From: a phage | DNA length: 40,015 nt | Reading direction: 5' to 3' (one strand) | Sequence record: PV889368.1 | Program-made: the position numbers and the translations under genes | Notes under the pieces: generated by a model | Told to the model about the DNA's origin: nothing | Seen by the model: only the letters and a program-made list of their open reading frames with translations | Database searches by the model: none | In this document: one piece after another, positions 17,125-38,983 of the stretch | Layout of the letters: every line of letters begins with the position of its first letter | Position numbering within the stretch: the first letter of the stretch is position 1

Positions 17125-17185
17125 CTTGAATCTCCTCTTTAAGTTAAGACTAAAGTCTATCTTATAGTCATATCTTAGGGCCTAA

Positions 17186-17334: not shown

Positions 17335-18204
17335 TCACATGGATGGTGTCCACAGGATGACCTCCTTGGACTTAGGGTCATAGTCAGAGGCTCGACAAAT
17401 ACGAGCGACCTGAGCTTGGACCAGAAGTTCCTCCTCGGTCATGCCAGCCTTAGCAGCCAGTGTAACCATGCAGTCCCACAGCGTCATGTCTTCACGCTTA
17501 GGATACTTCTTCCACTCAGTCTTAATCTGTCCTTTGTTCTTGCCAGTCTTAAGCTCACGGCTCTCCTGCACGAAGTAGTACGGATCGTTAAGGAATGCAC
17601 GAGTGGTGTCCTCACCCATTCCCGGAATGCCACCGTAGCCATCTGTAGTATCACCCTTGATGGTCTGCTCCATGTGCCAGTAGTCTGCCTCGGCAGTCGT
17701 ATGACTCAGGATTTCACCAGTGGTTAACCAGAAGAACTCACAGTTCGGGATTGTCTTGAAGTCCTTGTCACAGGACACCAGAACCGCATGGTCGCAACCT
17801 ACAATCTGAGGTCGTGTCCCGATGATACCCATACAGTCATCACCCTCAAGCGTAGGACGCAGGAAGCTGTTGAACCGTGGGTCAGCCATTACTTCGGCTA
17901 CGAACTTCTTGTAACCTACAGGCTTGCGAGAACCTTTACGGTTGGCCTTATAGGTAGGCAGAACGTCCTTACGCCAGTTGTTATCGTCCGTAAAGCACAT
18001 CACAATCTTAGCGTCTTTCCACGCCTTGCGCTTCTTAACGATTTCAGCGATGGTGTTCTCAAGGATACGGCGAGCCTTCTCGTGGTCGCAGATAAGGGTC
18101 CAGATGTCATCTCCCCAGTCTGTCTCGTCCTCGGCAGCAGCCATAGAAGAGAAGACCAGATAGTCACCATCCAGAACCAGAGCTATCTTCTTATTCGAAG
18201 TCAT
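17335..18204 (-). CDS. 5'-3' exonuclease (gp6)
   Basis: DGDYLVFSSMAAAE, CDHEKARRILE, SCDKDFKTIPNC, TIKGDTTDGYGGI and KAGMTEE match T7 gp6. Confidence 0.93.
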   Translation of the reverse strand: MTSNKKIALVLDGDYLVFSSMAAAEDETDWGDDIWTLICDHEKARRILENTIAEIVKKRKAWKDAKIVMCFTDDNNWRKDVLPTYKANRKGSRKPVGYKKFVAEVMADPRFNSFLRPTLEGDDCMGIIGTRPQIVGCDHAVLVSCDKDFKTIPNCEFFWLTTGEILSHTTAEADYWHMEQTIKGDTTDGYGGIPGMGEDTTRAFLNDPYYFVQESRELKTGKNKGQIKTEWKKYPKREDMTLWDCMVTLAAKAGMTEEELLVQAQVARICRASDYDPKSKEVILWTPSM

Positions 18205-18631
18205 CGTCCAGACCTCCAGTAGCCATAGCGACCGTAGCTGGCATCACGGAAACTTTCGGCTCCTTAATACGTTCGAGAGTCACCTCAGGCTTCAGCCATT
18301 TGTTGGCGAACTCATGGGCCATGTCGTTGTCCTCTGAGTTGAGGTGTGACATCAGGTTCCAGAAGTTTGAAGACATCTCAGTCTCCTTCTCAACCGGGCG
18401 ATATACGCCCCAGTCATTTACCTCTGAACCATAGCGGTCACTCCACATGCCACTGGCTACGATGGTCAGCCCGATGAACGGACGCCACTCATAAGCCTCA
18501 GCGGGAGACTCGGTGCATGACTCAACGTCCTTCTCGGTCAAGGTGTATGACCAAGATGCGTAGAACTCAGCGTACTTGCGGCACTCACCCATTTCAAGGA
18601 CCAGCTCTTTCAGACTTTCAGGTATCTTCAT
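18191..18631 (-). CDS. Hypothetical acidic protein in the gene 5.9 position (146 aa), not similar to T7 gp5.9
   Basis: ATG 18631..18629 with GGAGG RBS, ATGA overlap with the gp5.7 stop; ends LDDDFE. Confidence 0.55.
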   Translation of the reverse strand: MKIPESLKELVLEMGECRKYAEFYASWSYTLTEKDVESCTESPAEAYEWRPFIGLTIVASGMWSDRYGSEVNDWGVYRPVEKETEMSSNFWNLMSHLNSEDNDMAHEFANKWLKPEVTLERIKEPKVSVMPATVAMATGGLDDDFE

Positions 18632-18837
18632 AGACAGCCTCCGTGTTGGTTCAGGAACTTGGTGCCAGCAGCGGTAATCTCCCACGCACCGTTGTTACGC
18701 CCATCCATAGACAGGCAGCTTAGATGTCCACGACTCGCAGCCTCAGCCACCAGTGCTGCATTATTGCGCACGTAGTTGGACTGAAAGGTCTTCGGGCAGG
18801 ACTTAAGGGCCGCTAGGACCCGTAAGTATTCACTCAT
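18628..18837 (-). CDS. gp5.7
   Basis: MSEYLRVLAALKSCPKTFQSNYVRNNAALVAEAASRGHLSCLS... is near-identical in pattern to T7 gp5.7. Confidence 0.9.
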   Translation of the reverse strand: MSEYLRVLAALKSCPKTFQSNYVRNNAALVAEAASRGHLSCLSMDGRNNGAWEITAAGTKFLNQHGGCL

Positions 18838-19118
18838 TGCTTGACCTCGAATCTCAGGTTGGACACGCCGAACTGGCCATCACCAAAGGTGTCTACCAGC
18901 TCCTCTTTGATGCTCTTCTTGGCGACAATTTCAAGGGCAGACTCAGGGCCTGACTCGATTGCTGCTTTGACCAGAGCCAACTGAAGCCCATCCAGCTTCT
19001 CACCATCAGCGTAGGCTTTAGTCATCTCAGCCAGTTGGCGACACATGGTCTCTTCTTCATTTGAGTTGACAACCATCTTCAGGTCGAAACTTACACGAAT
19101 ACGTTTAGTAATAGCCAT
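18834..19118 (-). CDS. gp5.5-like (H-NS-binding protein family)
   Basis: Start moved to ATG 19118 (AAGGAG RBS); MAITKRIRVSFDL resembles T7 gp5.5 MAMTKKFKVSFDV. Confidence 0.7.
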   Translation of the reverse strand: MAITKRIRVSFDLKMVVNSNEEETMCRQLAEMTKAYADGEKLDGLQLALVKAAIESGPESALEIVAKKSIKEELVDTFGDGQFGVSNLRFEVKQ

Positions 19119-19135
19119 TAGTGTTACTCCTTTCG

Positions 19136-19291
19136 TTAATGACATTCTTTCCACGTGGGTCCAATCTTACCCTCAGTATCAAGAACACATTTAAAGTTAT
19201 AGAACTCACCCACCTTACGCATAGCAAGTTGAGCAATCTTGACGACTTCTTCGGCAATCTCCTGAGTACGACACGCAATTTGTAACTCATC
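19136..19291 (-). CDS. DNA polymerase gp5, exon 2 (C-terminal 51 aa)
   Basis: Translates to DELQIACRTQEIAEEVVKIAQLAMRKVGEFYNFKCVLDTEGKIGPTWKECH, matching the T7 DNAP C-terminus DEIQVGCRTEEIAQ...NFRCLLDTEGKMGPNWAICH; in frame with exon 1 once the intron is removed. Confidence 0.8.
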   Translation of the reverse strand, partial: DELQIACRTQEIAEEVVKIAQLAMRKVGEFYNFKCVLDTEGKIGPTWKECH

Positions 19292-19641
19292 CTTTCTGTA
19301 TTCTCCCATTACTGGAAGTGTCGGACTATATCATCAGTCTTTGAGGTGACTGTCTGGCGCTTCGGGTTACGTGGGAATCTCACCCACGGCCCTACTCCTT
19401 TCGGATAGTCTCTACGCCTTCCACTCTCTAATCCACCCACAGGCGGCTGAGAACGCCACATTGAATATTTCGGAAGTATCCATCCTGATTCAATTTATGT
19501 GACGTAGGGATTATGCAGCCAGTCTCAGTGGCCTCAAGAATTAACTTCTTGCCTCTCATACATCCTCCCTATGGCTTGGCTCGGTATTGTCCCATTAGGA
19601 GTTCACCGAGTTCACCAGATTTAATGTGCACCATGATGTTA
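19292..19641 (-). ncRNA. Candidate ORF-less group I intron (350 nt) interrupting the DNA polymerase gene
   Basis: Exon 1 ends in U (..GUGCAU); the intron contains GUGCAC able to pair with it including a terminal U-G wobble (P1); the last intron base is G; R-like GUAGAGACUAUCC and S-like GAUAUAGUCC elements occur in that order ~30 nt from the 3' end; no ORF inside. Confidence 0.7.
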
Positions 19642-21657
19642 ATGCACCCATGCCATGTACGCAAAGTCACCTTCCCAGCCGTGAACATACCCTGCCTCTT
19701 CGAGCATACGTTCAGTCTCCACAATCCAGTGCTTACAGACTACCGCACCATCACCTTGAAGTAAGGCGTTCAGTGCTGAGTGTGGAGACCGGATGTGGAT
19801 ACGGCGACCATCAAGTCCACGCAACCAACGGCGCTTCCACTTGACGATATTCTCACCGTCCACCCACTTAGAGTCCGAGATTAACGTATTACTCACAGCT
19901 TCCCTGAGGTCCTTGATGGCTGGTGTACCCTCAATGAATTTCTTCATGAGAGCTGAACCTTCCTTCTTACCACCTCCTACTATCAGTCCAATCTTAGCGG
20001 CCCCTGCACCATACAGGAACGCATAGATGAACGTCTTAGCGTTGTTACGGAAAGCCTCATGGTCGTGGTTAGACTTATCGCGTGGGACGTTAGGTGCTAA
20101 CCCAGCGTTTACTGCGTTGGCCCAGTGGATGTCACCTTCGACCACAGTCTTCGCATAGTCACCACCATCAAACGGAGCCGCTCGGTTCCCCAGACAACGA
20201 AGCTCAAGACCTGAGGCATCCACACCCACTTGAATCCAAGGGTCTGGCTTACCATCCGTCTTGTTCCAAGCTGCACCGAAAGCACCACGGCAAGTCTCAC
20301 CATATGGAGCACCGTTAGCCGGGACCTGAGCCATGTTTGGTGCGCTATGAGTCGCACGTCCGGTTACTGCCCCGCATGGGTTGATTGAACCGTGCATACG
20401 TCCGTCTGGACCTACAAGTTTCAACCATGCGTTCTTACCTTCAGCCGCCTGACCGATTCGCTTCTGTACTACCAGATACTCACGGACCAGCTCTACGCAA
20501 GCCTGAGCCTCTGCGTCTGGTAGCTTAACGTGTTCTAACGTCTCGTCATCGACTACAGGTTTCCCGGTGTCAGTGAAGTCAACAGGCTCCCAGCCACGCT
20601 CCATCAAGACTTTTGCCAAGTGGTCTCCGCTTCCCGGATTAAACTCAACGTAAATGATTGGCGTGAATGGTGCTCCCTCCATCGTGTCTCGCGTATCGAG
20701 TTCACAAGGTTCAAGACCTAAGCGTTGAGCTTTGTTCTTCGGCTTCTTAAATATGCCACCGACCTTAGGATACACGACTCGCGGATACTTCGGAAGGTCC
20801 TTACCTGTCCGTGGATGCCTGAAGAACTCCTTGCCACCCTTCGGTGCGTACCAGCTACCGAAAGTCGAACGCAGCTTGTCAAGCAACTCCGCACGCTTGA
20901 CGGTGAGTTCACGATATAAGCCTTCGACCATCTCGGTGTTCATCGGATAGCCATTACGTTCCATCTTCGCACAGGTCCACGCAGCATCATGTTCCAGACG
21001 CAACGCATAAATCTGGTCGAAAGCGAACTGTTCAGACTGGAAGTAATACTTGTCAGTCAGGAACTTCTTGAACAACGCCAGTGTGACCACAACGTCTTGA
21101 ACGTTATAGTCCAGCATCTCCTGAGACGGGAACAACCATTCGTCCCCAGCCTTATATTCGATACCTTCAGCCTTGCACTTGGCAATGTAATCGTGTTTGT
21201 ACTCACCTTTCATCTCACCGAGACGATAACCCCAAGCCTCAAGAGATTGACGTCCCATCATATTAGGTGGCAGACGACCAGCTTTCACCGCGCCCATGTC
21301 GGAGAACTTAATGTTTGGATACATCAAGCGGCCCAGCACCAAGGTATCAATCATCTTGTGTTTCGGGAAGTTAAAGCGTTTCCCAAAGTACAGACGCTTC
21401 AGCTTGTCAATAGCCGGGACGTCGTAGTTGATACCGTTGTGGAATACCAGCATACCATCAGGTGATGCGGCAATCTCTTCCACCTTCTGCACATACTCTT
21501 TGAAGCCCCCGACGATACCGACCATCGGAGCTACCCCATACTTAAGGGTCTCATTCGACTCGGCGTTAATCAGGACCCCACAGTGGAACTGGGATACTGT
21601 ATCAAGGAGACCGTTTGTCTCGATGTCAGAACCCCAGATACTCTTAAGGTCAAACAT
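19642..21657 (-). CDS. DNA polymerase gp5, exon 1 (672 aa)
   Basis: Start moved to ATG 21657 (GGAGGA RBS); GSDIETNGLL, FHNG..YDVPA, EAWGYRLGEMKGEYK, GRATHSAPNMAQVP, GLELRCL, NAKTFIYAFLYGAG and GDFAYMAWVH match T7 gp5; TAA follows WVH where T7 continues. Confidence 0.92.
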
Positions 21658-21679
21658 GGTTAATCCTCCGTTTAGTCTA

Positions 21680-21720
21680 ATCATAAAGGCCACTCGATGT
21701 GAATGACCTTGAGTCTAGAC
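21680..21720 (-). promoter_or_regulatory. Conserved late intergenic element, copy 1 (candidate RNase III site, R4.7-like position)
   Basis: Plus strand aatcataaaggccac-N-gaatgaccttgagtcta; near-identical copies at 28685..28727 and 38668..38715. Confidence 0.4.
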
Positions 21721-23600
<1,880 letters not shown>

Positions 23601-28646: not shown

Positions 28647-28684
28647 GTGGTTGAATCTCCAGTAGTTTACGTTAGGTTAGGGTT

Positions 28685-28727
28685 AATCATGAAGGCCACG
28701 ACTTTGAGTCATGACCTTGAGTCTAAT
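28685..28727 (-). promoter_or_regulatory. Conserved late intergenic element, copy 2 (candidate RNase III site, R1.1-like position)
   Basis: aatcatgaaggccac-N-catgaccttgagtctaatc; see copies at 21680 and 38668. Confidence 0.4.
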
Positions 28728-28746
28728 CCTATAGTGATAGTTTAGG
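28724..28746 (-). promoter_or_regulatory. Phage RNAP promoter (phi1.1-like)
   Basis: Minus strand CCTAAACTATCACTATAGGATTAGAC. Confidence 0.8.
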
Positions 28747-29048: not shown

Positions 29049-31730
29049 TTAAGCGAATGCAAAGTCTGAAGACAAGATGTCTTCGATATTCAGTTCACCT
29101 TTCTTCGGAAGCTCAGGCAACTTGTCGCGCTGACTCTCGTGAAGCTGGTATTCAAACTGCTCGTAGAAGTCAAGCAGCACATCGTTGTCGCGGTATGTCT
29201 CTACCATCGTCTCACGGACACCACGGAACAGATACTCAGCGTCAGCCGGGATGGTCCCGAAGCTATCGTGAATCACTGCGAATGACATCACACCATACTT
29301 GCGGTGCGTGTGGACTACAGTCTTGCGGAGGTGGCTACCATCTTGTGAGTGGACGAAGTTCGGGCTAATGCCTGACTCCTGCTTGTGTTTGTCCAGCTCT
29401 TTCTTTGTGCCTTTGTTGACTGTAGGCTGAAGGTTGAATGACCCTAAGAACATCAGGTTCAGACGAGTGGTATCCTTCTTGCGGTATTCCTGCCATACCG
29501 GGAAACCATCAGGTGTGACCCAGTGTACCGGAAGGCAAGGCTTCAGGATTTCACCAGTCTTCTTGTCCTTCACTTCAGCAGCCAGCAGCTTGGCAGCGCC
29601 TTGAAGCCACTTCATCGCGTCAACCGCAGCAACTACGGTCACACTCACAGCCTCCCAAATCATCTTGGCCATGAAGCGAGACGCTTGGCTTGGCTCAGTG
29701 AACATAGCGCCAGACCCTGAGTCAATCGCTGGCATTACGATGTCCTCGTAAACTTGGTCTGCGAAGCCGTACTCTTTCGACCCGTAGGCCAGAGTCATGA
29801 CCGAACGCTTAGTGACCTTGCGTGACATACCGTAAGTCAGCCACTGACGGGCCAGCTCTCGTGTCCCCAGCTTGAGACGCTCGGTAATCTCACCTGTTTT
29901 CTTGTCCTCGTGAGTCACCACCTCGTTGTCCGTACCGTTAACCAGCAGGACTTTAAGTTCCTCCTCAATGCGGTCGGACACAATGCGGTAGATGTCTTGG
30001 ACCTTACCGGATGGCGTCAGGTTTACTGCATGTCCACCGATGTGGTCACGAAGCATCGCGCTGAAGTGCTGAATCCCAGAGCATGACCCATCGAACGCTA
30101 TCGGAAGCGAGCATGAGTAAGACAATCCGTGGTGCATTACGCCAGCATACTCGAAGCAGAACGCAAGGAAGCAGAACGGAGAGTCTAACTTGCCCCACCA
30201 CTCAATGCTATCCATCGGTGCTTTGGCAGCAGCCATGATGTTGTCGTGGTTGTCTTCCACCCATTTGATGCGCTCCTCGAAGGTGACTTTATCGACACCA
30301 GCACAGTTTGCACCGTGGACCTTCAGCCATTTAAAACCATCAGCGCCAATAGGCTTGCCGACTGCCAGAGTCAGGAGACCCTTCTGCATGTCGTTGCCCT
30401 GAGGGTTGAACATCGGTACAGCGTAGACGCGGCCGCGCCAATCCATGTTATATGGGAACCATATGGCCTTGAACTGAGAGAACTTGTTTGCTTGGTTAAC
30501 GATAAAGCTCAGTGATAATCTGCGTGACTGTCTGGCCTTCTCGCGGCGATAGATACCAGCAGCAGCCTTCTTCCATGCCTTGAGTTCTTCTTCAGTCTCA
30601 CCCGCATAGTCCTCAGGCTTCAGTGGTTCCATCTGAGGGATGTCATCAATAGGCGTGTTGTTCAGCTTCTCGACCATGTTCACAACGTCCAGGACCTTCT
30701 TGTTCACTTTCCAAGGTGTACTCTGAATGATGTTCACAGCGTCGTAGACTTCAGGCATGTACACGTCTTCGTAACGTGCTACCGCAGACTTAGACCCTAA
30801 GCGAATCAGTGGTAATGGTCTGCGACCTTTGGCCCAATACCCACCACCTACGACACCCGTCCACGGCTTAGGTGGAACGACGCAAGGCTGATAGACTGGT
30901 GCGATACCCGCAAGGCTGAATCCACGTTGTGCCATCTTCTTTACCCAGAAGTCTGACAGGTGGACCATCTCAACGTCAGCCGCCGCATTGCCAGCACCAT
31001 AACGCTTAAGCTCAACCAGTTGTGTAGACTGAATGACAATCTCAAGCATCTTGATGCCAACGTGTACCGCCTCGGTAGGACTCCAAGTTCCCCAAGCATC
31101 TTCCAGTTGGCCCTGCTCCAGCATGGATGTCTCAACCGCTTGCATGTAGGCTTTCTTGTAGGATGCCCCGGCTCGCTTGTTCAGGTTCTCAGCTATCGCC
31201 TTCTTGAAGTGCTCCTGCTCCTTGTCACGGATGCGACCGAAGCGGATTTCATCTTCAAGAGTGCGACCTATCGCGGAGGCCATAGGTGTAATCGGTATCC
31301 CTTCAGGCTTGACCAGCTTAGAGAGAATGACCTTCAGTATGATAACCGCAGCAGACTCGCAGGAGATGCGCAGAGAGCGGTCCTTGACAGCCTTCCCTTC
31401 AGTGCTCAACATGGTGAACGCTACGCTCGGACGAGAGATTGACAGCTTCCCGTCTGTGCCTTCATGCCACTCCTTGACGGCTTGCGCAATCTTAGGGACC
31501 AGAGTCTGCATCAAAGGCTTGGCGACCTGATTGTCTGCCAGTTCCCCGCGCTCCGTCTGGCGCTCAAGGTTCTTGATGAAACGTCGCTCGCCTTCAGTGT
31601 ATGCCTCATGCTCAAGCTGAAGCTGTTTGACTGCAAGGTCTTGCCCGTAGTGGTCAGCCAGCAGGTTAAACGGCTCAATGGCGTTCGACACATCAGAGAA
31701 GTCGTGTTTGTCAATAGAGATGACGCTCAT
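29049..31730 (-). CDS. Single-subunit DNA-dependent RNA polymerase (gp1)
   Basis: Collinear with T7 RNAP across 893 aa, e.g. FSDV...PFN.LADHYG, RFGRIRD, PCVVPPKPWTG, AIWFPYNMDWRGRVYA, DGSCSGIQHFSAMLRD, VTKRSVMTLAYGSKE, HDSFGT, C-terminal FAFA. Confidence 0.97.
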   Translation of the reverse strand: MSVISIDKHDFSDVSNAIEPFNLLADHYGQDLAVKQLQLEHEAYTEGERRFIKNLERQTERGELADNQVAKPLMQTLVPKIAQAVKEWHEGTDGKLSISRPSVAFTMLSTEGKAVKDRSLRISCESAAVIILKVILSKLVKPEGIPITPMASAIGRTLEDEIRFGRIRDKEQEHFKKAIAENLNKRAGASYKKAYMQAVETSMLEQGQLEDAWGTWSPTEAVHVGIKMLEIVIQSTQLVELKRYGAGNAAADVEMVHLSDFWVKKMAQRGFSLAGIAPVYQPCVVPPKPWTGVVGGGYWAKGRRPLPLIRLGSKSAVARYEDVYMPEVYDAVNIIQSTPWKVNKKVLDVVNMVEKLNNTPIDDIPQMEPLKPEDYAGETEEELKAWKKAAAGIYRREKARQSRRLSLSFIVNQANKFSQFKAIWFPYNMDWRGRVYAVPMFNPQGNDMQKGLLTLAVGKPIGADGFKWLKVHGANCAGVDKVTFEERIKWVEDNHDNIMAAAKAPMDSIEWWGKLDSPFCFLAFCFEYAGVMHHGLSYSCSLPIAFDGSCSGIQHFSAMLRDHIGGHAVNLTPSGKVQDIYRIVSDRIEEELKVLLVNGTDNEVVTHEDKKTGEITERLKLGTRELARQWLTYGMSRKVTKRSVMTLAYGSKEYGFADQVYEDIVMPAIDSGSGAMFTEPSQASRFMAKMIWEAVSVTVVAAVDAMKWLQGAAKLLAAEVKDKKTGEILKPCLPVHWVTPDGFPVWQEYRKKDTTRLNLMFLGSFNLQPTVNKGTKKELDKHKQESGISPNFVHSQDGSHLRKTVVHTHRKYGVMSFAVIHDSFGTIPADAEYLFRGVRETMVETYRDNDVLLDFYEQFEYQLHESQRDKLPELPKKGELNIEDILSSDFAFA

Positions 31731-31799
31731 ACTTAAAGTCCTTGTTATTAGTCTTTCACTTAGAGTCTCTTTGGTCTTTCACTTGGAGTCTTAGACCTT

Positions 31800-31822
31800 G
31801 AGTCCTATAGTGATAGTTAAGT
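31800..31822 (-). promoter_or_regulatory. Phage RNAP promoter immediately upstream of the RNAP gene
   Basis: Minus strand GACTTAACTATCACTATAGGACTCAAGG, about 75 nt upstream of the gene 1 ATG; the leader carries a duplicated AAGTGAAAGAC. Confidence 0.7.
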
Positions 31823-31827
31823 CAGAA

Positions 31828-32220
31828 TTACTTGCATATCAGAGGGTTAGCGTGAAGATGACTGAAGTCACCGTGAGTCGTGTGCTTGATGGTCGACCGT
31901 TGGTCTATCGCCTTCCAGCCTGAGACCAGAAGTTTACCGTCGTCTGTGATTGGTCGTCCACCATACGCCAGATACATCAGCTCGGACTTATGGCCCTCGG
32001 CCCGGAGTCGTGCCTGAAGTACACGGTCTCGCTCCTGCTGTTGACGCTTAGTGTGTGATGAGTGGCGGTGTACATAAGTGCCCTTTCTCCCGGTCTTCTC
32101 CCAGTAGTTGCGGCCACGCGAGTCAGTTCCAACATACTTCCACTCTACGCCGTTCTTATCAGTGAATTTGCGAAACGCTAGGGTTGAGTCCATTGCGTGT
32201 ACCAGATTTAACATATTCAT
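31828..32220 (-). CDS. Hypothetical early protein (130 aa) where T7 has the gp0.7 kinase; no kinase motifs seen
   Basis: ATG with GGGAG RBS; TAATG overlap with the upstream ORF. Confidence 0.6.
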   Translation of the reverse strand: MNMLNLVHAMDSTLAFRKFTDKNGVEWKYVGTDSRGRNYWEKTGRKGTYVHRHSSHTKRQQQERDRVLQARLRAEGHKSELMYLAYGGRPITDDGKLLVSGWKAIDQRSTIKHTTHGDFSHLHANPLICK

Positions 32221-32417
32221 TACAGTTTACTCCCAAGTGTTGCTATATCCCAGACGTTCGCTAAGTTACGCGTGAATCGTCCGTTAGGTTGACGCACAGT
32301 CCAGCGACCCAGACGTGCATAGTTGAATTTATAGACTTTACATGCCTTGTTGATGTCTCTCACCAGCACGTAGGCGATAAGTCCATAGCCTATGGCTATC
32401 AATAGTGCAGATATCAT
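32220..32417 (-). CDS. Small early protein with an N-terminal transmembrane helix (65 aa)
   Basis: ATG start; hydrophobic N-terminus MISALLIAIGYGLIAYVLV. Confidence 0.5.
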   Translation of the reverse strand: MISALLIAIGYGLIAYVLVRDINKACKVYKFNYARLGRWTVRQPNGRFTRNLANVWDIATLGSKL

Positions 32418-32420
32418 AGC

Positions 32421-32588
32421 TTACCCCGCCAGTCCAATCCATATCAGTAGACCGCGCACGACCCCTACCGGAGAGAATATTATATCCACTGCCAGCCAGC
32501 CAAGACGCAGTGCATTCCCATCAGCTATGACCGCAGTCAGCCAAGACAGAATGATGGTGACGTAAAGTGCGATGACTGTAAGTTTCAT
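32421..32588 (-). CDS. Small early membrane protein (55 aa, two predicted TM helices)
   Basis: Not in the ORF track; ATG 32588 with AGGAG RBS; MKLTVIALYVTIILSWLTAVIADG...VGVVRGLLIWIGLAG. Confidence 0.45.
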   Translation of the reverse strand: MKLTVIALYVTIILSWLTAVIADGNALRLGWLAVDIIFSPVGVVRGLLIWIGLAG

Positions 32589-32594
32589 AGTTAA

Positions 32595-32660
32595 CTCCTA
32601 TCAATTTAAGTGATAATCTTTGAGGCCACATATCAGTTAGATGACCTCTCGTCTATCACT
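32595..32660 (-). promoter_or_regulatory. Conserved early intergenic element, copy D
   Basis: Shares ...gaggccac...atcagt...gacct...tctatcactc... with copies at 33045, 33785 and 34375; lies in the 5' leader of the downstream ORF. Confidence 0.4.
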
Positions 32661-32661
32661 C

Positions 32662-33039
32662 CTACACTTCCACTGCGATGGTTGTCATCTTGGTCACAGT
32701 AAGACCACCAGCAAGCTCAACAGCATAGCGTATCGCCTCGTCTTTGGACCTGAAATCTTTTCCAGCAAGGTGGTAAATATCGCCGTTTATTACTTTGGTC
32801 GGCTTGCGGCTGACTGCTATGGCGTTGCTGAGGGAAAGCTCGCCTTTCGACCACTGAGAGTGCCAGCGAAGCACGCTCTTACTGGATACGTTGAAGTCAC
32901 TTGCCACCATCTCAAGCATGGAGTCAAGTCGAGAGGTGCCATATTGAGGCTGGCGCACCAAGTCGTATGCCTGTGCTACTCGGATTTTAAACTCTACAGA
33001 ATACTGATTGCGGGTCTTAGGTTGTGCTGGTGTAAACAT
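32662..33039 (-). CDS. Early protein with a transposase-type helix-turn-helix-like N-terminus (125 aa)
   Basis: ATG with AAGGA RBS; YSVEFKIRVAQAY....YGTS......VSSKSVLRWHSQW resembles IS3-OrfA-type HTH (from memory, unverified). Confidence 0.55.
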   Translation of the reverse strand: MFTPAQPKTRNQYSVEFKIRVAQAYDLVRQPQYGTSRLDSMLEMVASDFNVSSKSVLRWHSQWSKGELSLSNAIAVSRKPTKVINGDIYHLAGKDFRSKDEAIRYAVELAGGLTVTKMTTIAVEV

Positions 33040-33044
33040 TTGGC

Positions 33045-33125
33045 ATTCCTTCTGGTTAATTTAAATTAAGTGACAATCAGTCAGGCCACCAGCATTGATG
33101 ACCTGTAGTCTATCACTCAGCGTGC
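33045..33125 (-). promoter_or_regulatory. Conserved early intergenic element, copy C
   Basis: ttaatttaaattaagtgacaatcagtcaggccacc...gacctgtagtctatcactcag. Confidence 0.4.
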
Positions 33126-33262
33126 AAGCTGCCGAGTATACTCTTGCGGCCCTTATAGACCGCTTTCAGGAGACGCATAGCCACATCGTGGTTTAACTGC
33201 CCGGTCTTGACCATAAGCCGGGCGTTGTTGACGTGATGCTGGCAGAGACCATAAGTTACCAT
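33116..33262 (-). CDS. gp0.4-like small protein (48 aa; T7 gp0.4 is an FtsZ inhibitor)
   Basis: Not in the ORF track; ATG overlaps the ocr stop (TAATG); MVTYGLCQHH...AMRLLKAVYKG..SILGSLHG resembles T7 gp0.4 ..VQYGLTAQ...AMAQLKELYEN..AIALESAE. Confidence 0.55.
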
Positions 33263-33771
33263 TACTCGCAGTCCTCTTCAGCAGCCGCAGGGTCGAACAC
33301 TACGTTATCGTTGACGTCTTCGACCTTCAGGTGGCGACCAATCGCATAGTGGTCTTTGGCACATGCGGTAGCGACCTCAAGAGACACAGCTTGCTCAATT
33401 ATTGCTCCTGTTTTAGCGTCAACTACCCAATACTCAGCCTCTTCGTCGCTCTCTTCAGCCTCAAACCATACCACATCCGAGCTATTAGACACATCGTTAT
33501 ACAGTGCCTCATAGATACGAGCTTGCAGTATACGCGTCACATCCTTGGTCTCAGGCATCAGCCCAGAGTCTTCAAACTCATGGTCAATACCATCAGCAGC
33601 CATCACCGTGAAAATCTCGTGGTAATAGTGCGGTACCTGACCGTCTACGACCTCATGCAGCGCATCATGGTAGTCGTCACCTTCAGCTATTTCGTCGTAC
33701 TGAATGCGCTCGTTAAATGCTTCAACAGTTGCAGCCAGCAGGTCATAGTATGCGCTAGCGTTACGTTCCAT
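33262..33771 (-). CDS. ocr: Ocr-like DNA mimic (gp0.3 family), 169 aa with an extended C-terminus
   Basis: [53 protein letters not shown] closely matches T7 Ocr [53 protein letters not shown]; about 50 aa longer than T7 Ocr (117 aa). Confidence 0.9.
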   Translation of the reverse strand: [169 protein letters not shown]

Positions 33772-33784
33772 AGTTATATCCTCT

Positions 33785-33860
33785 CAAAGTTAATTATGTG
33801 TGTGTTAGTGACTATCAGTCAGGCCGCTATGAGTCTAACGACCTGTAGTTAATCACTAGA
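33785..33860 (-). promoter_or_regulatory. Conserved early intergenic element, copy B (ocr leader)
   Basis: ctctcaaagttaattatgtgtgtgttagtgactatcagtcaggcc...gacctgtagttaatcact; near-identical to copy A. Confidence 0.45.
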
Positions 33861-34134
33861 AGGCTACATCTTTAAGCGCGTTCTTGAGCATGGTCTCTAT
33901 GTTTGAATCATTCACGTTGGTCATATACCCACCCACCTCTTGCACTTCCGCATTGTTGCTGGTGATTAATTCCTGCGCCTTTTTATGGCCCACTCCATGA
34001 TAGCAATCCCACACGAAGCGCTTGAACGTTAGACCCTTCTCTTTGTAGAGCGCGGCGGAGTCCGCCACTCCACGCAATAATCTTGATTCTAACTCCTTGC
34101 GGAAGGCGTCTGCTGTAGCTTTGTTCAGTCTCAT
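33856..34134 (-). CDS. Hypothetical early protein (92 aa) upstream of ocr
   Basis: ATG with AAGAGGA RBS, 12 nt after the upstream ORF. Confidence 0.6.
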   Translation of the reverse strand: MRLNKATADAFRKELESRLLRGVADSAALYKEKGLTFKRFVWDCYHGVGHKKAQELITSNNAEVQEVGGYMTNVNDSNIETMLKNALKDVAF

Positions 34135-34145
34135 AATGAATCCTC

Positions 34146-34352
34146 TTAGTAAATGTAAGTTTCGACACTATCAATGATTACGAAATGCTGTGGGCGGCGA
34201 CTATTGAAGTCTACAAGCATTACTTGCAACCACTTACCGTTAATCTTAACTTTGTAGTTAGAGTAAGCCTGGCCTTTAACCATATCTTCAGTAGTTACTT
34301 TAACCTTGCGGCATTCCAGTTTAACAGTCTTCTCTTTATCTGCGTAGAACAT
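34146..34352 (-). CDS. Hypothetical early protein (68 aa), first gene of the early operon
   Basis: Start moved to ATG 34352 (MFYADKEK...) with GAGAGGA RBS inside conserved element A. Confidence 0.55.
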   Translation of the reverse strand: MFYADKEKTVKLECRKVKVTTEDMVKGQAYSNYKVKINGKWLQVMLVDFNSRRPQHFVIIDSVETYIY

Positions 34353-34374
34353 ACTAAATCCTCTCAAAGTTAAT

Positions 34375-34450
34375 TGTGTGTTAGTGACTATCAGTCAGGG
34401 CCTTCAGATGTAGACTCAAAGACCCTGTAGTTAGTCGCTATCGGCGCACA
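34375..34450 (-). promoter_or_regulatory. Conserved early intergenic element, copy A
   Basis: cctctcaaagttaattgtgtgttagtgactatcagtcagggcc...gaccctgtagttagtcgct. Confidence 0.45.
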
Positions 34451-34550
34451 TTAAGAGTTTATCCAGATTGTTAAAGAGCATTCGCGTTGGCTGTCGTCGC
34501 CGTGCTATCCCGTTTCAGTGTTGGGACTCACCGTCGTTTCAGTGTGGTAC

Positions 34551-34579
34551 AGCTTACAGCTTTTAAAGGAGGCTGTCAA
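34551..34579 (-). promoter_or_regulatory. Candidate host sigma70 early promoter (A-type), proximal
   Basis: Minus strand TTGACA, 17-nt spacer, TAAGCT, then GTACCAC; resembles T7 A2/A3 (TTGACA...TAAGAT). Confidence 0.5.
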
Positions 34580-34697
34580 CCTGTTATTCTTTTATGCGGT
34601 GAGTGACCGAATTCGACTCACAGCTGGTGCCTTATCCTTGGCTGGTCTCGGGCAGGCTTCTCGGTTCCTATCCCTACGCCATCTTGCTACGTGGTAC

Positions 34698-34727
34698 ATA
34701 CTACTTTAAGTCGGTACTACTTGTCAA
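34698..34727 (-). promoter_or_regulatory. Candidate host sigma70 early promoter (A-type), distal
   Basis: Minus strand TTGACA, 18-nt spacer, TAGTAT, then GTACCAC; same downstream GTACCAC as the proximal copy. Confidence 0.5.
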
Positions 34728-34939
34728 CTACTTTCTGTCATCTGCCTGTTGTTCGTATGACTTATCAGGCTGTCTACTTAACCGGGATGACCCGGCGTCT
34801 TCACTATCCGGTTGTTGCCGTGTCGTGTTGACGGAAGCTATTAAGCCACAGTCGATACCTATAGTCAATAGTCAATTTGAAATAATATTGATTAAGCTAT
34901 CGTCGGCCTCATAGTGACTAAGAAGATAGTCTTTGACTA

Positions 34940-35460
34940 ACATGTATTTGACCTTAAGTCTATAGCTTTGTGTCTATTAACTGTAGGTCTTTGACTGTAG
35001 GTTAATCGGATTAACTGGTAGATGACGTAAGGTTGATGACTTGAGGTGATAGGTTGATACAGATAGAGACTCAGAGAAGACAAATAGTCCCAACCTATCG
35101 TCTCAGCCCCAACCGATAGTCATGACCTATCGTTGACCTGAAGTCTTGACCATCGGTCCAACCTTATGATAGACTGGGGTGGGCCTTTGGTCTGGACTAA
35201 AAGAGGGCCTATGGGGAGACTTGAGGTTCTTGAACTGTGAGATGTGGTCTCAAACTTTTGGTCCAAAACTCATCGAAGACTGTAGGTGGCAGCTACTGTA
35301 GGTCAAGGACCGTAGGTCAGGCGACACTAGGATAGACCAATAAGTAGGATGACCCTAAGTGAGCTTCTATTAAGGTGTTACCTAAAGTCCTTGACTACAG
35401 TAGCTAAGGTCAGTAGAGTGAGTCTTTATCCACGTACTGACCTTAGGTCTTCAGCCTTCG
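34940..35460. repeat. Non-coding region rich in short dispersed repeats; likely contains the genome termini / concatemer junction
   Basis: Many copies of CTGTAGGTC, ACCGTAGGTC, CCTTAGGTC, CCTAAAGTCC and similar within ~500 bp lacking ORFs, placed between the phiOR/19.5 end and the early promoters, as with T7 terminal short repeats. Confidence 0.5.
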
Positions 35461-35509
35461 CCATAACCGATCATACTACCTCCTTTCATGAATCGTTACC
35501 ATGATTGCG

Positions 35510-35852: not shown

Positions 35853-36395
35853 TTACTTGTGGTTTCTATGGGTCCTATCACGCTTAGGGGACCGTCGGTT
35901 TACTGCGTATTCCTTGTGCTTCTCAGTGCGTAGAGCATCAAGCCACACCTCTAGTTCCTCTATTGAATCTGAGGTCTTCGTGAAGCACTTACCTTGTAGG
36001 CGCAACTGAGCGCGATACTTTCCGGTAGGCTTGAAAAAGCTGATACCTTTGGGTAGACCATTAGTCTCGCCACCTCCTGAGTTCCATCTGTTCTCTAATG
36101 CTGTTACTAACCTGTAGTTATCTGGCCTGTCGTCAAGTCTATCACCATTGATATGGTCAACCATCATGCCAGAAGGTATACGACCCACTACTAGGCTGTA
36201 GATGATTCTGGCACGCCTATAGCGGCTACCAAGAACCTTCACGATTGCGTACCCAGACGGATGGACTGAATGTCCCATGACCTCGCCTGGCTTCTTGTTA
36301 GAGCCTTTATAGGGCTTCTTGCACACCAACTCACCATCTACATAAGCATAGTGATTAAAGAGGGCCACCCTGTCGATGGCCTTCTGTTTACTCAT
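35853..36395 (-). CDS. HNH homing endonuclease with an AP2-like DNA-binding domain (180 aa)
   Basis: HNH motif region VDHINGDRLDDRPDNYRLVTALENRWN; GISFFKPTGKYRAQLRLQGK resembles an AP2 domain; ATG with GGAGGA RBS 14 nt after the terminase stop. Confidence 0.8.
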   Translation of the reverse strand: MSKQKAIDRVALFNHYAYVDGELVCKKPYKGSNKKPGEVMGHSVHPSGYAIVKVLGSRYRRARIIYSLVVGRIPSGMMVDHINGDRLDDRPDNYRLVTALENRWNSGGGETNGLPKGISFFKPTGKYRAQLRLQGKCFTKTSDSIEELEVWLDALRTEKHKEYAVNRRSPKRDRTHRNHK

Positions 36396-36408: not shown

Positions 36409-38172
36409 TTAGTGGAACGTAACGTATGACCCTAGTCCCATCTCGTCGTCCGTATCGTGAGTTACCCGGACCCCATTGTCCCAGAACTCAGTGTGGATGG
36501 ACTCGAATCCTTTACGTGGGTTCTCCATCTGTTCCTCCAGCCATTCCTCAGTGACTTCACGTTCGCCTTTGTTGGCATCCTTAGCCATAGACTCAACGAA
36601 GAACTGTACACCGATAGCCAGCGCATCAAGTCGGTCATCGTGTGCCAAGGCTCCACGTTCACGAGAGATACGGGTCATCTGGTAGAAGAGAGAGTAGATA
36701 GGGTTACGAACACCATCCTTATCAGAGGCTGACTGATAGTCTTGGACGATAGCAGCAGCGTTGACGATAAGTCGGTGAGACCCCATGATAGGCTCCAGAA
36801 CGTCGCAGATGCGGAGTTCCTTCTGACCCTTACTCTTCACTTCTGTTACAGCAGCAGGATGGATACGGGCCGCTACAGGCTTGAATAGCTCAAGGTACAT
36901 ACCATCACCGAAGTTACCCTCAATGACGTATTCGTTGACCTTCCACTTACGACCAATCTTAGCCAAGGCTTCCAGAGTAGAGTCTTCATAACCACCACGC
37001 ATACCACCCACTTCCATAGCGAAGATGTAGCCGTTGAGCTGATACAGTACCGCATATCCAGTTTCATCCTTACCACGACCACTGGGGTCAATGACCAGAA
37101 TCTTCTGGGTGTATGAACTGAAGGCAGAACCTACAGTCTGATACGTGTGGTACGAGTCACCCATAAGTCCAACGTTAGGAACGTCCTCACGCTTGTTCTG
37201 AGGGTTCGGCAACCATTGGTAGACCATTGGGCTGGACTCTGGGTCCAAGTCTGCTACGATAAGGTCACGTAGCTTCAGAGGGTACTTCTCAGCATCACTC
37301 AGGTTCGGGTTAAGCATGAACTGTAGAGCGAAGCCAGCTTTACCGTATGACAGCTCACGTTCCTTCAGGTCCGTATCATCAAATCGTACCTCATCGGTCG
37401 GACGCCAGTAGAAGGACTCAGGGTCCTCTTCTAGTTCTGCCTGAAGCATAGGAGCCAGACGGTCGCCGTAAGACTGCCAGTCCTTCCTGTCGCGTGGATA
37501 ACGAGCGGGCCAAATAGTAGTGGTATACCCACGACCTTCCAGCTCACGATACAGGGTCATCTCGTTCTGAGGAGTACCCAGATAGATGATTGTACCTCCC
37601 GGCTTCAGGATAGCGTCGAACTCTTTCACAAGCTCTGACAGTCGGTCTCGCGCAGCCTGAGTCGCAGAGTTGTTAGGAACCTCCACGTCATCGGCAATCA
37701 GGATGTCAGCACGGCTACCAGTCAACTGACCAGTGATACCAACTGACTTAACAGAAGGTGAGTGGTCTGGCTTGGCTGGCCCAACGTCGAAGCTGATAAC
37801 CGCATCCCGCTGTCCCTGCTTAGGTTTGAGTTCCTGAAGCTGAGGCATGAGGTCGATGATTCGCTTGATGAAGATGGAGTTAGCATCGGCTCGCTCCTTT
37901 GAGGCCGACACAATCATGAACTTCAAGTCTGGGTTGTTCCATAGCTTCCAGACCACGAAGGCACACGTAATGAAGGACTTCCCGATACCACGGAACGCCT
38001 GTAGGATGAAACGCCTGTTGTCCCCAGCCGATAGTTTCTTCGCCATGTCAATCTGACAGCGAGTCGGGACTGGGAGTGACAGAGCTTTCCATAGAACGAA
38101 CAGGAAGAACACGAAGTCTGCCTTCATACGGGCAGTCATTAGCGCCTGACGCGCCACTAAGTCTTTACTCAA
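36409..38172 (-). CDS. Terminase large subunit (gp19)
   Basis: [128 protein letters not shown] match T7 gp19; probable TTG start with AAGGAGG RBS. Confidence 0.95.
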
Positions 38173-38618: not shown

Positions 38619-38667
38619 AGTTGCCCTCCCGGTTTATCAGATTTCACGTAGAGTCGCCTCCACTAGT

Positions 38668-38715
38668 TAGTGTTAACCATAAAGGCCACTACATATAGTA
38701 ATGACCTTGAGTCTA
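38668..38715 (-). promoter_or_regulatory. Conserved late intergenic element, copy 3 (candidate RNase III site, R18.5-like position)
   Basis: aaccataaaggccac-N-taatgaccttgagtctaaca. Confidence 0.4.
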
Positions 38716-38719
38716 ACAC

Positions 38720-38983
38720 TTATTGAACACCATACCCTGTGTCATTATCCTCAGTCGCTGAAAGCACCTTATCGTACTCTGCGTTAAGGGCCTCCATATC
38801 AGCCAGCGTCTTCTCGTCCACAGACACCTTGCTTAACACAAAGTTGTGACGAGCTAGTAGCTTCTCAATGGCGTTGTAGAGCTGAGGTGAACGCTTAGAG
38901 TCATCCCGCAGATCTTGCAGCATGAGTCGAGCACGTTCAGTATCTAGCATTAAGAGGAACTTCTCTAAGTCCATCTGCGTCAT
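38720..38983 (-). CDS. Terminase small subunit (gp18)
   Basis: FLLMLDTERARLMLQDLRDDSKRSPQLYNAIEKLLARH resembles T7 gp18 FLEMLDTAMAQRMLADLSDHERRSPQLYNAIKLLDRH. Confidence 0.85.
   Translation of the reverse strand: MTQMDLEKFLLMLDTERARLMLQDLRDDSKRSPQLYNAIEKLLARHNFVLSKVSVDEKTLADMEALNAEYDKVLSATEDNDTGYGVQ

What the first reader, a model, noticed from the sequence alone, without database searches (positions are those of the whole stretch)
32595..34450. Four copies of a conserved ~70-nt element in the leaders of successive early genes
Near-identical elements (..TTAATT..AGTGACWATCAGTCAGGCC..N..GACCTGTAGTYNATCRCT..) sit upstream of the first early ORF, ocr, the HTH protein gene and the 55-aa membrane protein gene. 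On the mRNA each can form an imperfect long hairpin (e.g. UAGUGA...UCACUA arms). In T7, early polycistronic mRNA is cut by host RNase III at hairpins between genes (R0.3, R0.5, R1...). These repeats are good candidates for such processing sites, or alternatively for repeated promoter/operator elements.
Basis: partly seen in the sequence, partly recalled or inferred. Interest (0 to 1): 0.5.

Follow-up and report, generated by a model that had tools for sequence, protein, structure and literature searches.

The report
T7-type RNase III hairpins between early genes
The four repeats are this K1F-like phage's versions of the classic T7/T3 RNase III processing hairpins that cut the early polycistronic mRNA into gene-sized pieces; this is an ordinary, expected feature, though the hairpins also mark the exact junctions where optional early genes come and go between related phages.

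Summary
Four copies (62-80% pairwise identity) lie on the coding (minus) strand at 34378-34445, 33802-33863, 33064-33123 and 32604-32666, each 30-45 nt upstream of an early ORF. Each folds into a 9-10 bp lower stem, a 4+5 nt internal loop and a 10-11 bp upper stem. A covariance model built only from T3/T7 early RNase III sites finds all four, plus three more coding-strand copies at R1.1-, R4.7- and R18.5-like positions, and nothing else significant. Both stems show compensatory changes across relatives. The E. coli RNase III proximal-box and distal-box features match validated T7/T3 sites. Copy B precedes ocr (gene 0.3), like R0.3. Copy C overlaps the stop codon of a gene 0.4 homolog, like T7 R0.5. 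The promoter/operator alternative is not. Cleavage itself is inferred, not shown. One further result: relatives carry 2-4 such hairpins before gene 1, each optional gene module adds one hairpin, and the insertion/deletion junctions fall inside the repeated hairpin and leader sequence. The hairpins therefore also look like recombination linkers. Verdict: a new member of a known kind, of low to moderate interest.

The parts
34378..34445 (-). Hairpin A, an R0.3-type RNase III site with an extra G-C pair like T7 R0.3. It lies about 100 nt downstream of the third host-type promoter. The inferred cut is between 34393 and 34392 (ACU^GAU).
   Evidence: CM hit at 27.6 bits, E 1.1e-3. Fold -22.9 kcal/mol, z -3.9. 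Determinant table. Cut position by homology.
34353..34377 (-). Leader of the first early ORF (68 aa, ATG 34352), containing UUAACUUUGAGAGGA (an epsilon-like motif plus Shine-Dalgarno sequence). It is nearly identical to the leader after hairpin B.
   Evidence: Repeat family D3. Motif search: 2 exact copies against 0.03 expected. Alignment A7.
33802..33863 (-). Hairpin B, the positional equivalent of R0.3, immediately upstream of ocr (gene 0.3). The stop codon UAG of the 92-aa ORF (33858-33856) forms the first three paired bases of the lower stem. The inferred cut is between 33817 and 33816.
   Evidence: CM hit at 39.5 bits, E 1.9e-6. Fold -24.5 kcal/mol, z -5.3. Ocr is 55% identical to T7 gp0.3. 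Cut position.
33064..33123 (-). Hairpin C, the positional equivalent of R0.5. The stop codon UGA of the gp0.4 homolog (33115-33113) lies inside the lower stem, in the same GCUGAGUGAUAGAC context as in T7. The upper stem (pb4 to p16) is identical to T7/T3 R1. The inferred cut is between 33079 and 33078.
   Evidence: CM hit at 49.8 bits, E 7.5e-9..
32604..32666 (-). Hairpin D, a second R0.5-type site upstream of the 55-aa ORF. The stop codon UAG of the 125-aa ORF (32664-32662) abuts the stem. The inferred cut is between 32619 and 32618 (AAA^GAU).
   Evidence: CM hit at 34.7 bits, E 2.4e-5. Fold -19.6 kcal/mol, z -3.7..
28674..28736 (-). Hairpin E, R1.1-like, downstream of gene 1 and a 71-aa ORF. 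A phage promoter (28726-28742) overlaps its 5' end, as T3 phi1.1 overlaps T3 R1.1.
   Evidence: CM hit at 44.8 bits, E 1.1e-7. Promoter match. ORFs. T3 arrangement.
21669..21728 (-). Hairpin F, R4.7-like, immediately upstream of the DNA polymerase start codon.
   Evidence: CM hit at 48.3 bits, E 1.6e-8. ORFs. Leader.
38664..38726 (-). Hairpin G, R18.5-like, between the 87-aa gene-18-like ORF and the 149-aa gene-18.5-like ORF.
   Evidence: CM hit at 55.1 bits, E 4.5e-10. ORFs.
34551..34875 (-). Three sigma-70-like promoters (TTGACT/TTGACA boxes starting at 34875, 34727 and 34579), spaced about 148 nt apart like T7 A1-A3. They would launch the early transcript that carries hairpins A-D.
   Evidence: Pattern scans. 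The equivalence to A1-A3 is inferred from the T7/T3 annotation.
33856..34352 (-). Accessory module 1 (68-aa and 92-aa ORFs) between hairpins A and B. It is absent from most relatives, and the junction lies in the shared 3' arm and leader.
32662..33039 (-). Accessory module 2 (125-aa ORF, weakly HTH_Tnp_1-like) between hairpins C and D. It is present in only 24 of 50,697 phage records, and the junction lies in the shared GAGUGAUAGAC stem arm.

Best explanation
The four repeats are intercistronic RNase III processing signals of the T7/T3 type. Host RNA polymerase starts at three A1-A3-like promoters and transcribes the early region on the minus strand. As the transcript emerges, each element folds into two coaxial stems separated by an asymmetric internal loop. 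Host RNase III binds the upper stem through its proximal and distal boxes. It nicks a single phosphodiester on the 3' side of the loop. The inferred cut is ACU^GAU, between 34393/34392, 33817/33816, 33079/33078 and 32619/32618. Cutting would release mRNAs of about 576 nt (68-aa and 92-aa ORFs), 738 nt (ocr and the gp0.4 homolog), 460 nt (125-aa ORF) and about 3.9 kb (55-, 65- and 130-aa ORFs, gene 1 and a 71-aa ORF). Each upstream product ends in a protective 3' hairpin. Each downstream product begins with a 30-45 nt unstructured leader carrying the ribosome-binding site. What is shown here: the repeat, the fold, the covariation, homology to known sites, the determinants and the synteny. What is inferred: transcription from those promoters, the cleavage itself and its exact position. 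As a by-product or second role, the repeated hairpin and leader sequence supplies short homologies at which early-gene modules are gained and lost.
For: (1) A covariance model built only from the five annotated T3 stem-loops and the five corresponding T7 intergenic hairpins gives seven hits with E between 4.5e-10 and 1.1e-3. All are on the coding strand, they include all four copies, and the next hit has E above 6. In the T7 and T3 early regions the model finds only the ten training sites. (2) All four copies have the same architecture. RNAalifold on an unfitted MAFFT alignment of the seven window copies gives the same structure, with 11 of 20 pairs showing compensatory changes. (3) Across 54 hits from the window and 33 related loci, 94.8% of cells are paired against 28-54% for slid controls, 13 of 17 pairs change on both sides, and 0 of 500 shuffles reach the observed values. 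(4) The sense strand folds better than the antisense in all seven copies: by 6.6-14.1 kcal/mol for B, C and D, but by only 2.2 for copy A. Each sense fold uses 2-5 G.U pairs, so this is an RNA structure, not a DNA one. (5) The determinants defined on T7 R1.1 (PMC1540722) are conserved: A-U at proximal-box position 2 is invariant in all 17 sites compared, position 1 is G-C, position 4 is non-Watson-Crick, and the U.G pairs at positions 12 and 15 are kept. Copy C's upper stem is identical to T7/T3 R1. (6) Synteny: B sits directly upstream of ocr (55% identical to T7 gp0.3). C overlaps the stop codon of a gp0.4 homolog (39% identity, E 3e-6) in the same GCUGAGUGAUAGAC context as T7 R0.5. E is overlapped by a phage promoter, as in T3. 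(7) The T7 paradigm of five early sites, co-transcriptional cutting, 3' hairpins and effects on translation is described in PMC4858673 and PMC1540722.
Against: There is no experimental 5'/3'-end or rnc-dependence data for this phage or any Kayfunavirus. None was found in the records fetched or in the literature searched. The host is unknown. Copy A scores only 27.6 bits, has a longer, looser apical region, and folds almost as well on the antisense strand (-20.7 against -22.9 kcal/mol). Proximal-box position 3 is C-G or G-C in the four early copies, against A-U in R1.1. Substitutions at that position reduce binding in the minimal substrate, although T7/T3 R1 carry the same pair. The covariation alignment A4 was fitted to the model, which inflates pairing counts. 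The T7 site boundaries in the training set were set by me from homology, not from annotated features (searches list none).
Confidence: 0.88

Rival explanations
1. The hairpins bind RNase III, or simply fold, without being efficiently cut. They would act mainly as translational or stability elements, for example 3' stabilisers only after other nucleases act, or structures that tune ribosome access to the downstream start.
For: C-G or G-C at proximal-box position 3 differs from R1.1, and some G-C substitutions in the proximal box uncouple binding from cleavage (PMC1540722). Upstream stop codons sit inside or against the lower stem, so translation and folding are coupled.
Against: Proximal-box positions 1-4 are identical to T7/T3 R1 in copies A, B and C. 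In copy D, position 3 is G-C instead of C-G. The catalytic antideterminant position (pb4) is a non-Watson-Crick A.A, not G-C. The loop geometry (4+5 nt) is the one that gives single-site cleavage in T7.
Confidence: 0.06
2. The repeats are DNA-level regulatory sites: host or phage promoters, or operators for a phage or host DNA-binding protein such as the putative HTH protein.
For: Two weak sigma-70-like matches (9 of 12) overlap copies B and D. In T3 the minor promoters B and C abut R0.5 and R1. The element is an imperfect inverted repeat.
Against: Promoter-like matches are at chance level (8 against 5.3 +/- 2.3). No copy matches the phage promoter consensus AACTATCACTATAGGRA, which occurs 10 times elsewhere, always on the minus strand. 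Conservation takes the form of compensatory base-pair changes and G.U pairs that work only in sense-strand RNA. The elements also occur in phages that lack the 125-aa ORF.
Confidence: 0.02
3. The elements are intrinsic terminators or attenuators that partition early transcription.
For: They are stable hairpins placed between genes.
Against: No U-run follows the stems (the sequence after each is CACUAAC...), and no terminator-like site was found on the minus strand in 31700-35500. Downstream essential genes, including gene 1, must be transcribed through them.
Confidence: 0.01

Closest known systems
Bacteriophage T7 and T3 early RNase III processing signals (R0.3, R0.5, R1, R1.1, R1.3)
   Same: They share the two-stem, asymmetric-loop architecture and the conserved blocks AACU..AGGUC...GGCCU..GAU..CACU. 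They share intercistronic placement on the early polycistronic transcript, the position upstream of 0.3 and after 0.4, and the proximal- and distal-box features. Identity to the best T3/T7 site is 70-76%.
   Different: There are four sites before gene 1, against T7/T3's three, and none directly upstream of gene 1, where a phage promoter sits instead. The four early copies are chimeric in type: an R1-type proximal box (A.A, C-G) sits on an R0.3/R0.5-type lower stem, with 3' loop ACUGA against UAUGA. Cleavage has not been tested.
PeSL mobile regulatory cassettes of T4-type phages (Arbiol et al. 2010, PMC2839356; PMC4122927)
   Same: Both are short repeated regulatory motifs lying between small non-essential early genes. 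Insertions, deletions and replacements between close relatives have their junctions inside the repeats.
   Different: PeSLs are a sigma-70 promoter plus a terminator stem-loop. The elements here are RNA-processing hairpins plus a leader and ribosome-binding site, with no promoter or terminator. Mini-circle formation is not known for them.
T7 gene 10 leader 'epsilon' translational enhancer (UUAACUUUA; from my own knowledge of Olins and Rangwala 1989, not checked here)
   Same: The leaders after hairpins A and B contain UUAACUUUGAGAGGA directly upstream of the start codon.
   Different: This is only a motif resemblance in early-gene leaders. No functional test exists, and copies C and D lack the exact motif.

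Membership tests
T7-group RNase III processing signal | Sequence-plus-structure homology to experimentally defined or annotated T3/T7 sites | tested here: met
   A CM built from T3/T7 sites only hits C (49.8 bits), B (39.5), D (34.7) and A (27.6). E values run from 7.5e-9 to 1.1e-3, and the next non-family hit has E above 6.
T7-group RNase III processing signal | About two helical turns of dsRNA, split into upper and lower stems by an asymmetric internal loop | tested here: met
   Lower stem of 9-10 bp, loop of 4+5 nt, upper stem of 10-11 bp in all four copies. The same structure comes from the unfitted RNAalifold consensus.
T7-group RNase III processing signal | Base pairing maintained in evolution by compensatory changes | tested here: met
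   13 of 17 pairs change on both sides, 94.8% of cells are paired against 28-54% for slid controls, and 0 of 500 shuffles reach the observed values. 11 of 20 pairs are compensatory among the 7 window copies. Caveat: alignment A4 is fitted to the model.
T7-group RNase III processing signal | E. coli RNase III reactivity epitopes: proximal box without G-C at position 2, non-G-C at position 4, and U.G-containing middle and distal boxes | tested here: met
   pb2 is A-U and pb1 is G-C in all copies. pb4 is A.A. U.G is kept at p12 and p15, shifted by one position in copy A as in T7 R0.3. Over pb4 to p16 the pattern is identical to T7/T3 R1 for copy C (definitions from PMC1540722).
T7-group RNase III processing signal | Intercistronic position, in sense orientation, on a polycistronic transcript; synteny with R0.3 and R0.5 | tested here: met
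   All copies are on the coding strand between ORFs, downstream of three sigma-70-like promoters. B precedes ocr and C overlaps the stop codon of the gp0.4 homolog, as in T7.
T7-group RNase III processing signal | rnc-dependent cleavage at a single bond on the 3' side of the internal loop | not testable with these tools
   This needs 5'/3'-end mapping in wild-type and rnc hosts, or in vitro cleavage. Predicted bonds are given.
Sigma-70 promoter or phage RNAP promoter | A match to the -35/-10 hexamers above chance, or to the phage 17-23 nt promoter consensus | tested here: not met
   8 sigma-70-like sites against 5.3 +/- 2.3 expected, and only two 9-of-12 matches overlap copies. The phage consensus occurs 10 times in the window, never at the four copies.
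Intrinsic terminator | A G+C-rich stem followed by a U-run | tested here: not met
   No terminator-like site on the minus strand in 31700-35500. The stems are followed by CACUAAC...
PeSL-like recombination cassette | Repeated motif flanking variable genes, with indel junctions inside the repeat | tested here: met
   Each optional module adds one hairpin across the 14 K1F-like loci compared. 40 of 89 HSP ends fall in the 14.5% of sequence occupied by hairpin plus leader. Single hairpins in relatives are A/B and C/D hybrids.
PeSL-like recombination cassette | Composite early promoter plus terminator stem-loop | tested here: not met
   No promoter or terminator signature. The resemblance is functional analogy only, not membership.

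The most novel reading that the evidence does not exclude
In K1F-like phages, and perhaps all T7-group phages, the RNase III hairpin-plus-leader units are also the recombination linkers that drive modular shuffling of accessory early genes. Each module travels as a ready-made 'processing site + RBS + gene(s)' cassette that is correctly expressed wherever it lands, which would make it a T7-group counterpart of the T4-type PeSL system.
Probability: 0.5. Interest if true: 0.45.

Novelty: new member of a known kind. Interest (0 to 1): 0.27.

Why it matters
The result mainly matters for annotation. RNase III sites are unannotated in every Kayfunavirus record inspected, and Rfam has no family for them. 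A simple covariance model places seven of them in this genome and predicts the boundaries of the mature early mRNAs. The hairpins coincide with the junctions of variable early-gene modules, which include anti-restriction and other host-takeover candidates. This gives a concrete and testable mechanism for how T7-group phages swap accessory early genes without disturbing expression. It also points to natural insertion points for engineering K1F-type therapeutic phages.

Tried and rejected
Rfam gave no hit in the region, either at gathering thresholds on the whole window or at E<=1 on 32500-34500. Its only hit in the window is a group I intron elsewhere.

I looked for an R1-type site directly upstream of gene 1. 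There was no CM hit with filters off, and the 100-nt intergenic stretch folds no better than shuffles (z -0.43). It holds a phage promoter instead.

The promoter, operator and terminator readings were rejected.

I could not obtain the K1F genome paper by DOI, PMID or a guessed PMC id, so I cannot say whether it mentions RNase III sites. Full-text searches for RNase III together with K1F, T7-like, Autographiviridae or mosaic turned up no description of these sites or of recombination at them.

A T7 experimental-evolution paper with an early-region deletion (PMC6042481) was checked. That deletion fuses gene 0.3 to gene 1 and does not involve RNase III sites.

T7 RefSeq and V01146, as held here, list no RNase III features. 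I therefore set the T7 site boundaries by alignment to the annotated T3 sites.

The simple ORF clustering includes spurious alternative-frame clusters (c4, c5, c7-c10, c12), which I ignored.
Full report
CONTEXT. The window is a K1F-like phage (Kayfunavirus, Studiervirinae). Megablast of 31700-35300 finds 424 phage records. The best places align at 88-93% identity but cover only 56-68% of the query, so the early region is mosaic. All genes read on the minus strand. The RNA polymerase gene is at 29049-31730, small early ORFs run from 34352 down to 31828, and the terminase is at 36409-38172, so the window is circularly permuted. K1F base 1 aligns to window 35242.

OBSERVATION. In mRNA sense the four copies align with 67% mean column identity, and the hairpin cores are 62-80% identical pairwise. 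Each copy folds into the same shape: a lower stem of 9-10 bp, an asymmetric internal loop (4 nt on the 5' side, 5 nt on the 3' side), an upper stem of 10-11 bp and a 4-7 nt apical loop. Energies are -19.6 to -24.5 kcal/mol, z-scores are -3.7 to -5.3, and none of 200 shuffles folds as well. The copies lie upstream of the first ORF (68 aa from ATG 34352), ocr (Pfam PF08684, E 9.5e-32; 55% identical to T7 gp0.3), the 125-aa ORF and the 55-aa hydrophobic ORF. The 'HTH' label is only weakly backed, by HTH_Tnp_1 at E 0.068, below the curated threshold.

WHAT IT IS. The T3 record annotates five stem-loops as 'RNase III recognition site' R0.3, R0.5, R1, R1.1 and R1.3. The T7 records held here list no such features, but the corresponding T7 intergenic stretches fold and align in the same way. 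I built a covariance model from those ten sequences only and scanned the whole window with filters off. It gave seven hits with E between 4.5e-10 and 1.1e-3, all on the coding strand, and every other hit had E above 6.

The other three sit where T7/T3 have further sites. Hairpin E (28674-28736) lies after gene 1 and is overlapped by a phage promoter, exactly as T3 phi1.1 overlaps T3 R1.1. Hairpin F (21669-21728) lies immediately upstream of the DNA polymerase start. Hairpin G (38664-38726) lies between the gene 18-like and gene 18.5-like ORFs. The model is specific: in 16 kb of T7 and T3 it finds only its ten training sites. Rfam has no family for these elements.

STRUCTURE IS SELECTED AT THE RNA LEVEL. 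Across 54 hits from the window and 33 related loci, 94.8% of cells form standard pairs, against 28-54% when partners are slid by 1-3 columns. Thirteen of 17 pairs show changes on both sides, and no shuffle reaches the observed values. That alignment is fitted to the model, so I also ran RNAalifold on a plain MAFFT alignment of the seven window copies. It returns the same structure, with 11 of 20 pairs compensatory. The sense strand folds better than the antisense in every copy. The margin is 6.6-14.1 kcal/mol for copies B, C and D, but only 2.2 kcal/mol for copy A. Each sense fold uses 2-5 G.U pairs. This argues against a DNA-level palindrome.

RNase III DETERMINANTS. I used the numbering of the T7 R1.1 minimal substrate from Pertzev and Nicholson 2006 (PMC1540722) and tabulated each base pair counted from the internal loop. 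Proximal-box position 2, where a G-C or C-G pair blocks binding, is A-U in all 17 sites compared. Position 1 is G-C. Position 4, next to the scissile bond, where a G-C pair suppresses catalysis, is a non-Watson-Crick A.A in the four early copies, as in T7/T3 R1. The U.G pairs at positions 12 and 15 are kept. Copy C's upper stem is identical to T7/T3 R1 from pb4 to p16. Copy A has the extra G-C pair seen in T7 R0.3. The four early copies therefore combine an R1-type upper stem with an R0.3/R0.5-type lower stem.

INFERRED CUT SITES. From my recollection of Dunn and Studier 1983, T7 R0.3 is cut after nt 890, that is UAU^GAU. By homology the inferred cuts here are ACU^GAU (A, B, C) and AAA^GAU (D), at 34393/34392, 33817/33816, 33079/33078 and 32619/32618. 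That leaves leaders of 30-45 nt to the next start codon, compared with 34 nt for T7 0.3.

SYNTENY. B directly precedes ocr, like R0.3. The 49-aa ORF after ocr is a gp0.4 homolog (39% identity, E 3e-6). Its stop codon lies inside copy C's lower stem in the context GCUGAGUGAUAGAC, the same as T7 0.4/R0.5. The stop codons of the 92-aa and 125-aa ORFs likewise fall in or against the stems of B and D. Three sigma-70-like promoters about 148 nt apart (34875, 34727, 34579) lie upstream of copy A, resembling T7 A1-A3.

MECHANISM. The T7 paradigm is that host RNA polymerase makes a long early precursor, which RNase III cuts co-transcriptionally at five sites into mono- and dicistronic mRNAs. The internal loop limits cleavage to one strand, leaving a protective 3' hairpin, and processing improves translation of some messages (PMC4858673; PMC1540722). 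Applied here, the predicted products are about 576 nt (68-aa and 92-aa ORFs), 738 nt (ocr and gp0.4), 460 nt (125-aa ORF) and about 3.9 kb (three small ORFs, gene 1 and a 71-aa ORF, ending at hairpin E). Cleavage is inferred and not shown.

There is no R1-type site upstream of gene 1. That spacer holds a copy of the phage promoter (31802-31818) and folds no better than shuffles.

RIVALS. A phage-promoter reading fails because the consensus AACTATCACTATAGGRA occurs 10 times, always on the minus strand, and never at the four copies. A sigma-70 promoter reading fails because matches are at chance level (8 against 5.3 +/- 2.3). Two weak 9-of-12 matches do overlap copies B and D, recalling T3's minor promoters B and C next to R0.5 and R1. 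A terminator reading fails because there is no U-run and no terminator-like site on the minus strand. An operator reading is contradicted by the G.U-dependent, sense-specific covariation. A 'binding without cleavage' variant cannot be excluded without experiments, but it is unlikely given the match to the T7/T3 R1 proximal box (exact in A, B and C; position 3 is G-C instead of C-G in D).

BEYOND THE FINDING: HAIRPINS AS MODULE JUNCTIONS. BLASTN of the early region against 12 close relatives shows homology breaking and resuming at the hairpins. Of 89 internal HSP ends, 40 fall in the hairpin-plus-leader intervals, which make up 14.5% of the region. The nominal binomial p is 6e-12, but the relatives are not independent. 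An architecture map shows 2-4 hairpins before gene 1, and each optional module brings one extra hairpin:
- Window: HP-g68-g92-HP-ocr-0.4-HP-g125-HP.
- K1F: HP-gp0.2-HP-ocr-0.4-HP.
- SH3: HP-ocr-0.4-HP-g125-HP.
- L007: HP-ocr-0.4-HP.
- Vec13: HP-g92-HP-gp0.2-HP-ocr-0.4-HP.
- Peacock has four hairpins.

Junction alignments are explicit. Where K1F, L007 and L010 have one hairpin after gene 0.4, that hairpin carries copy C's upstream flank joined to copy D's hairpin body and leader. The switch lies inside the shared GAGUGAUAGAC arm. Where L007, SH3 and L010 have one hairpin before ocr, it is copy A's body joined to copy B's leader and ocr. The switch lies in the shared 45-50 nt 3' arm and leader.

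The module genes are patchily spread over several genera. The 125-aa ORF occurs in 24 of 50,697 records and the 92-aa ORF in 62. The 125-aa ORF is again hairpin-flanked in pO2, Penshu1 and GW1. This is the pattern described for PeSL cassettes in T4-type phages (PMC2839356). The motif differs, however: here it is a processing hairpin plus RBS, not a promoter plus terminator. I found no description of this for T7-group phages in the searchable library. The K1F genome paper and the classic T7 papers are not held there, so prior description cannot be excluded.

VERDICT. These are new, unannotated members of a textbook class, so interest is low. The hairpin-delimited cassette architecture adds a modest extra point.

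Noticed in passing
window 19302-19651 (-): Rfam group I intron hit (RF00028, 54.7 bits, full-length model). It begins right where the 684-aa DNA polymerase ORF (19639-21693) stops, so the polymerase gene appears to be interrupted by a self-splicing intron. Small ORFs follow at 18191-19290.
   Followed up: partly
window 31802-31818 (-), with 9 other sites: Phage RNAP promoter consensus AACTATCACTATAGGRA occurs 10 times (0.15 expected), all on the minus strand. One copy lies directly upstream of gene 1, which suggests the phage polymerase can transcribe its own gene. The PE3-1 record labels the equivalent site 'host RNAP promoter'.
   Followed up: partly
window 31748-31791: A tandem pair of 21-nt repeats (TTAGTCTTTCACTTAGAGTCT / TTGGTCTTTCACTTGGAGTCT on the + strand) in the spacer between the phage promoter and the gene 1 start. 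Purpose unknown, and the region has no stable fold.
   Followed up: no
window 33779-33793 and 34359-34373 (-): The leaders after hairpins A and B carry UUAACUUUGAGAGGA. This resembles the T7 gene-10 'epsilon' translational enhancer plus a Shine-Dalgarno sequence (2 exact copies against 0.03 expected). A one-mismatch copy lies at 17133-17147.
   Followed up: partly
window 33262-33771 (-): Ocr is 169 aa, against 117 aa in T7, and only residues 1-94 align to T7 gp0.3. Relatives break homology inside the C-terminal part (around window 33438-33451 and 33279-33282), so the acidic C-terminal extension is itself a variable module.
   Followed up: partly
window 35853-36395 (-): A 180-aa ORF between the terminase gene and the genome end. 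By eye it looks like an HNH-type homing endonuclease (the motif ...DHINGDRLDDRPDNYR...). It was not run against any family library.
   Followed up: no
window 32662-33039 (-): The 125-aa ORF between hairpins C and D is rare (24 of 50,697 phage records). In Cronobacter phages GW1 and Dev2 it sits directly upstream of the protein kinase gene. Its only family signal is a sub-threshold IS3-type HTH_Tnp_1 match.
   Followed up: partly
L039 (Penshu1 MK903281) 1837-1898: An RNase III-type hairpin overlaps the annotated start of CDS CPT_Penshu1_006 (locus 1844-2200), so that start codon may be mis-called.
   Followed up: no
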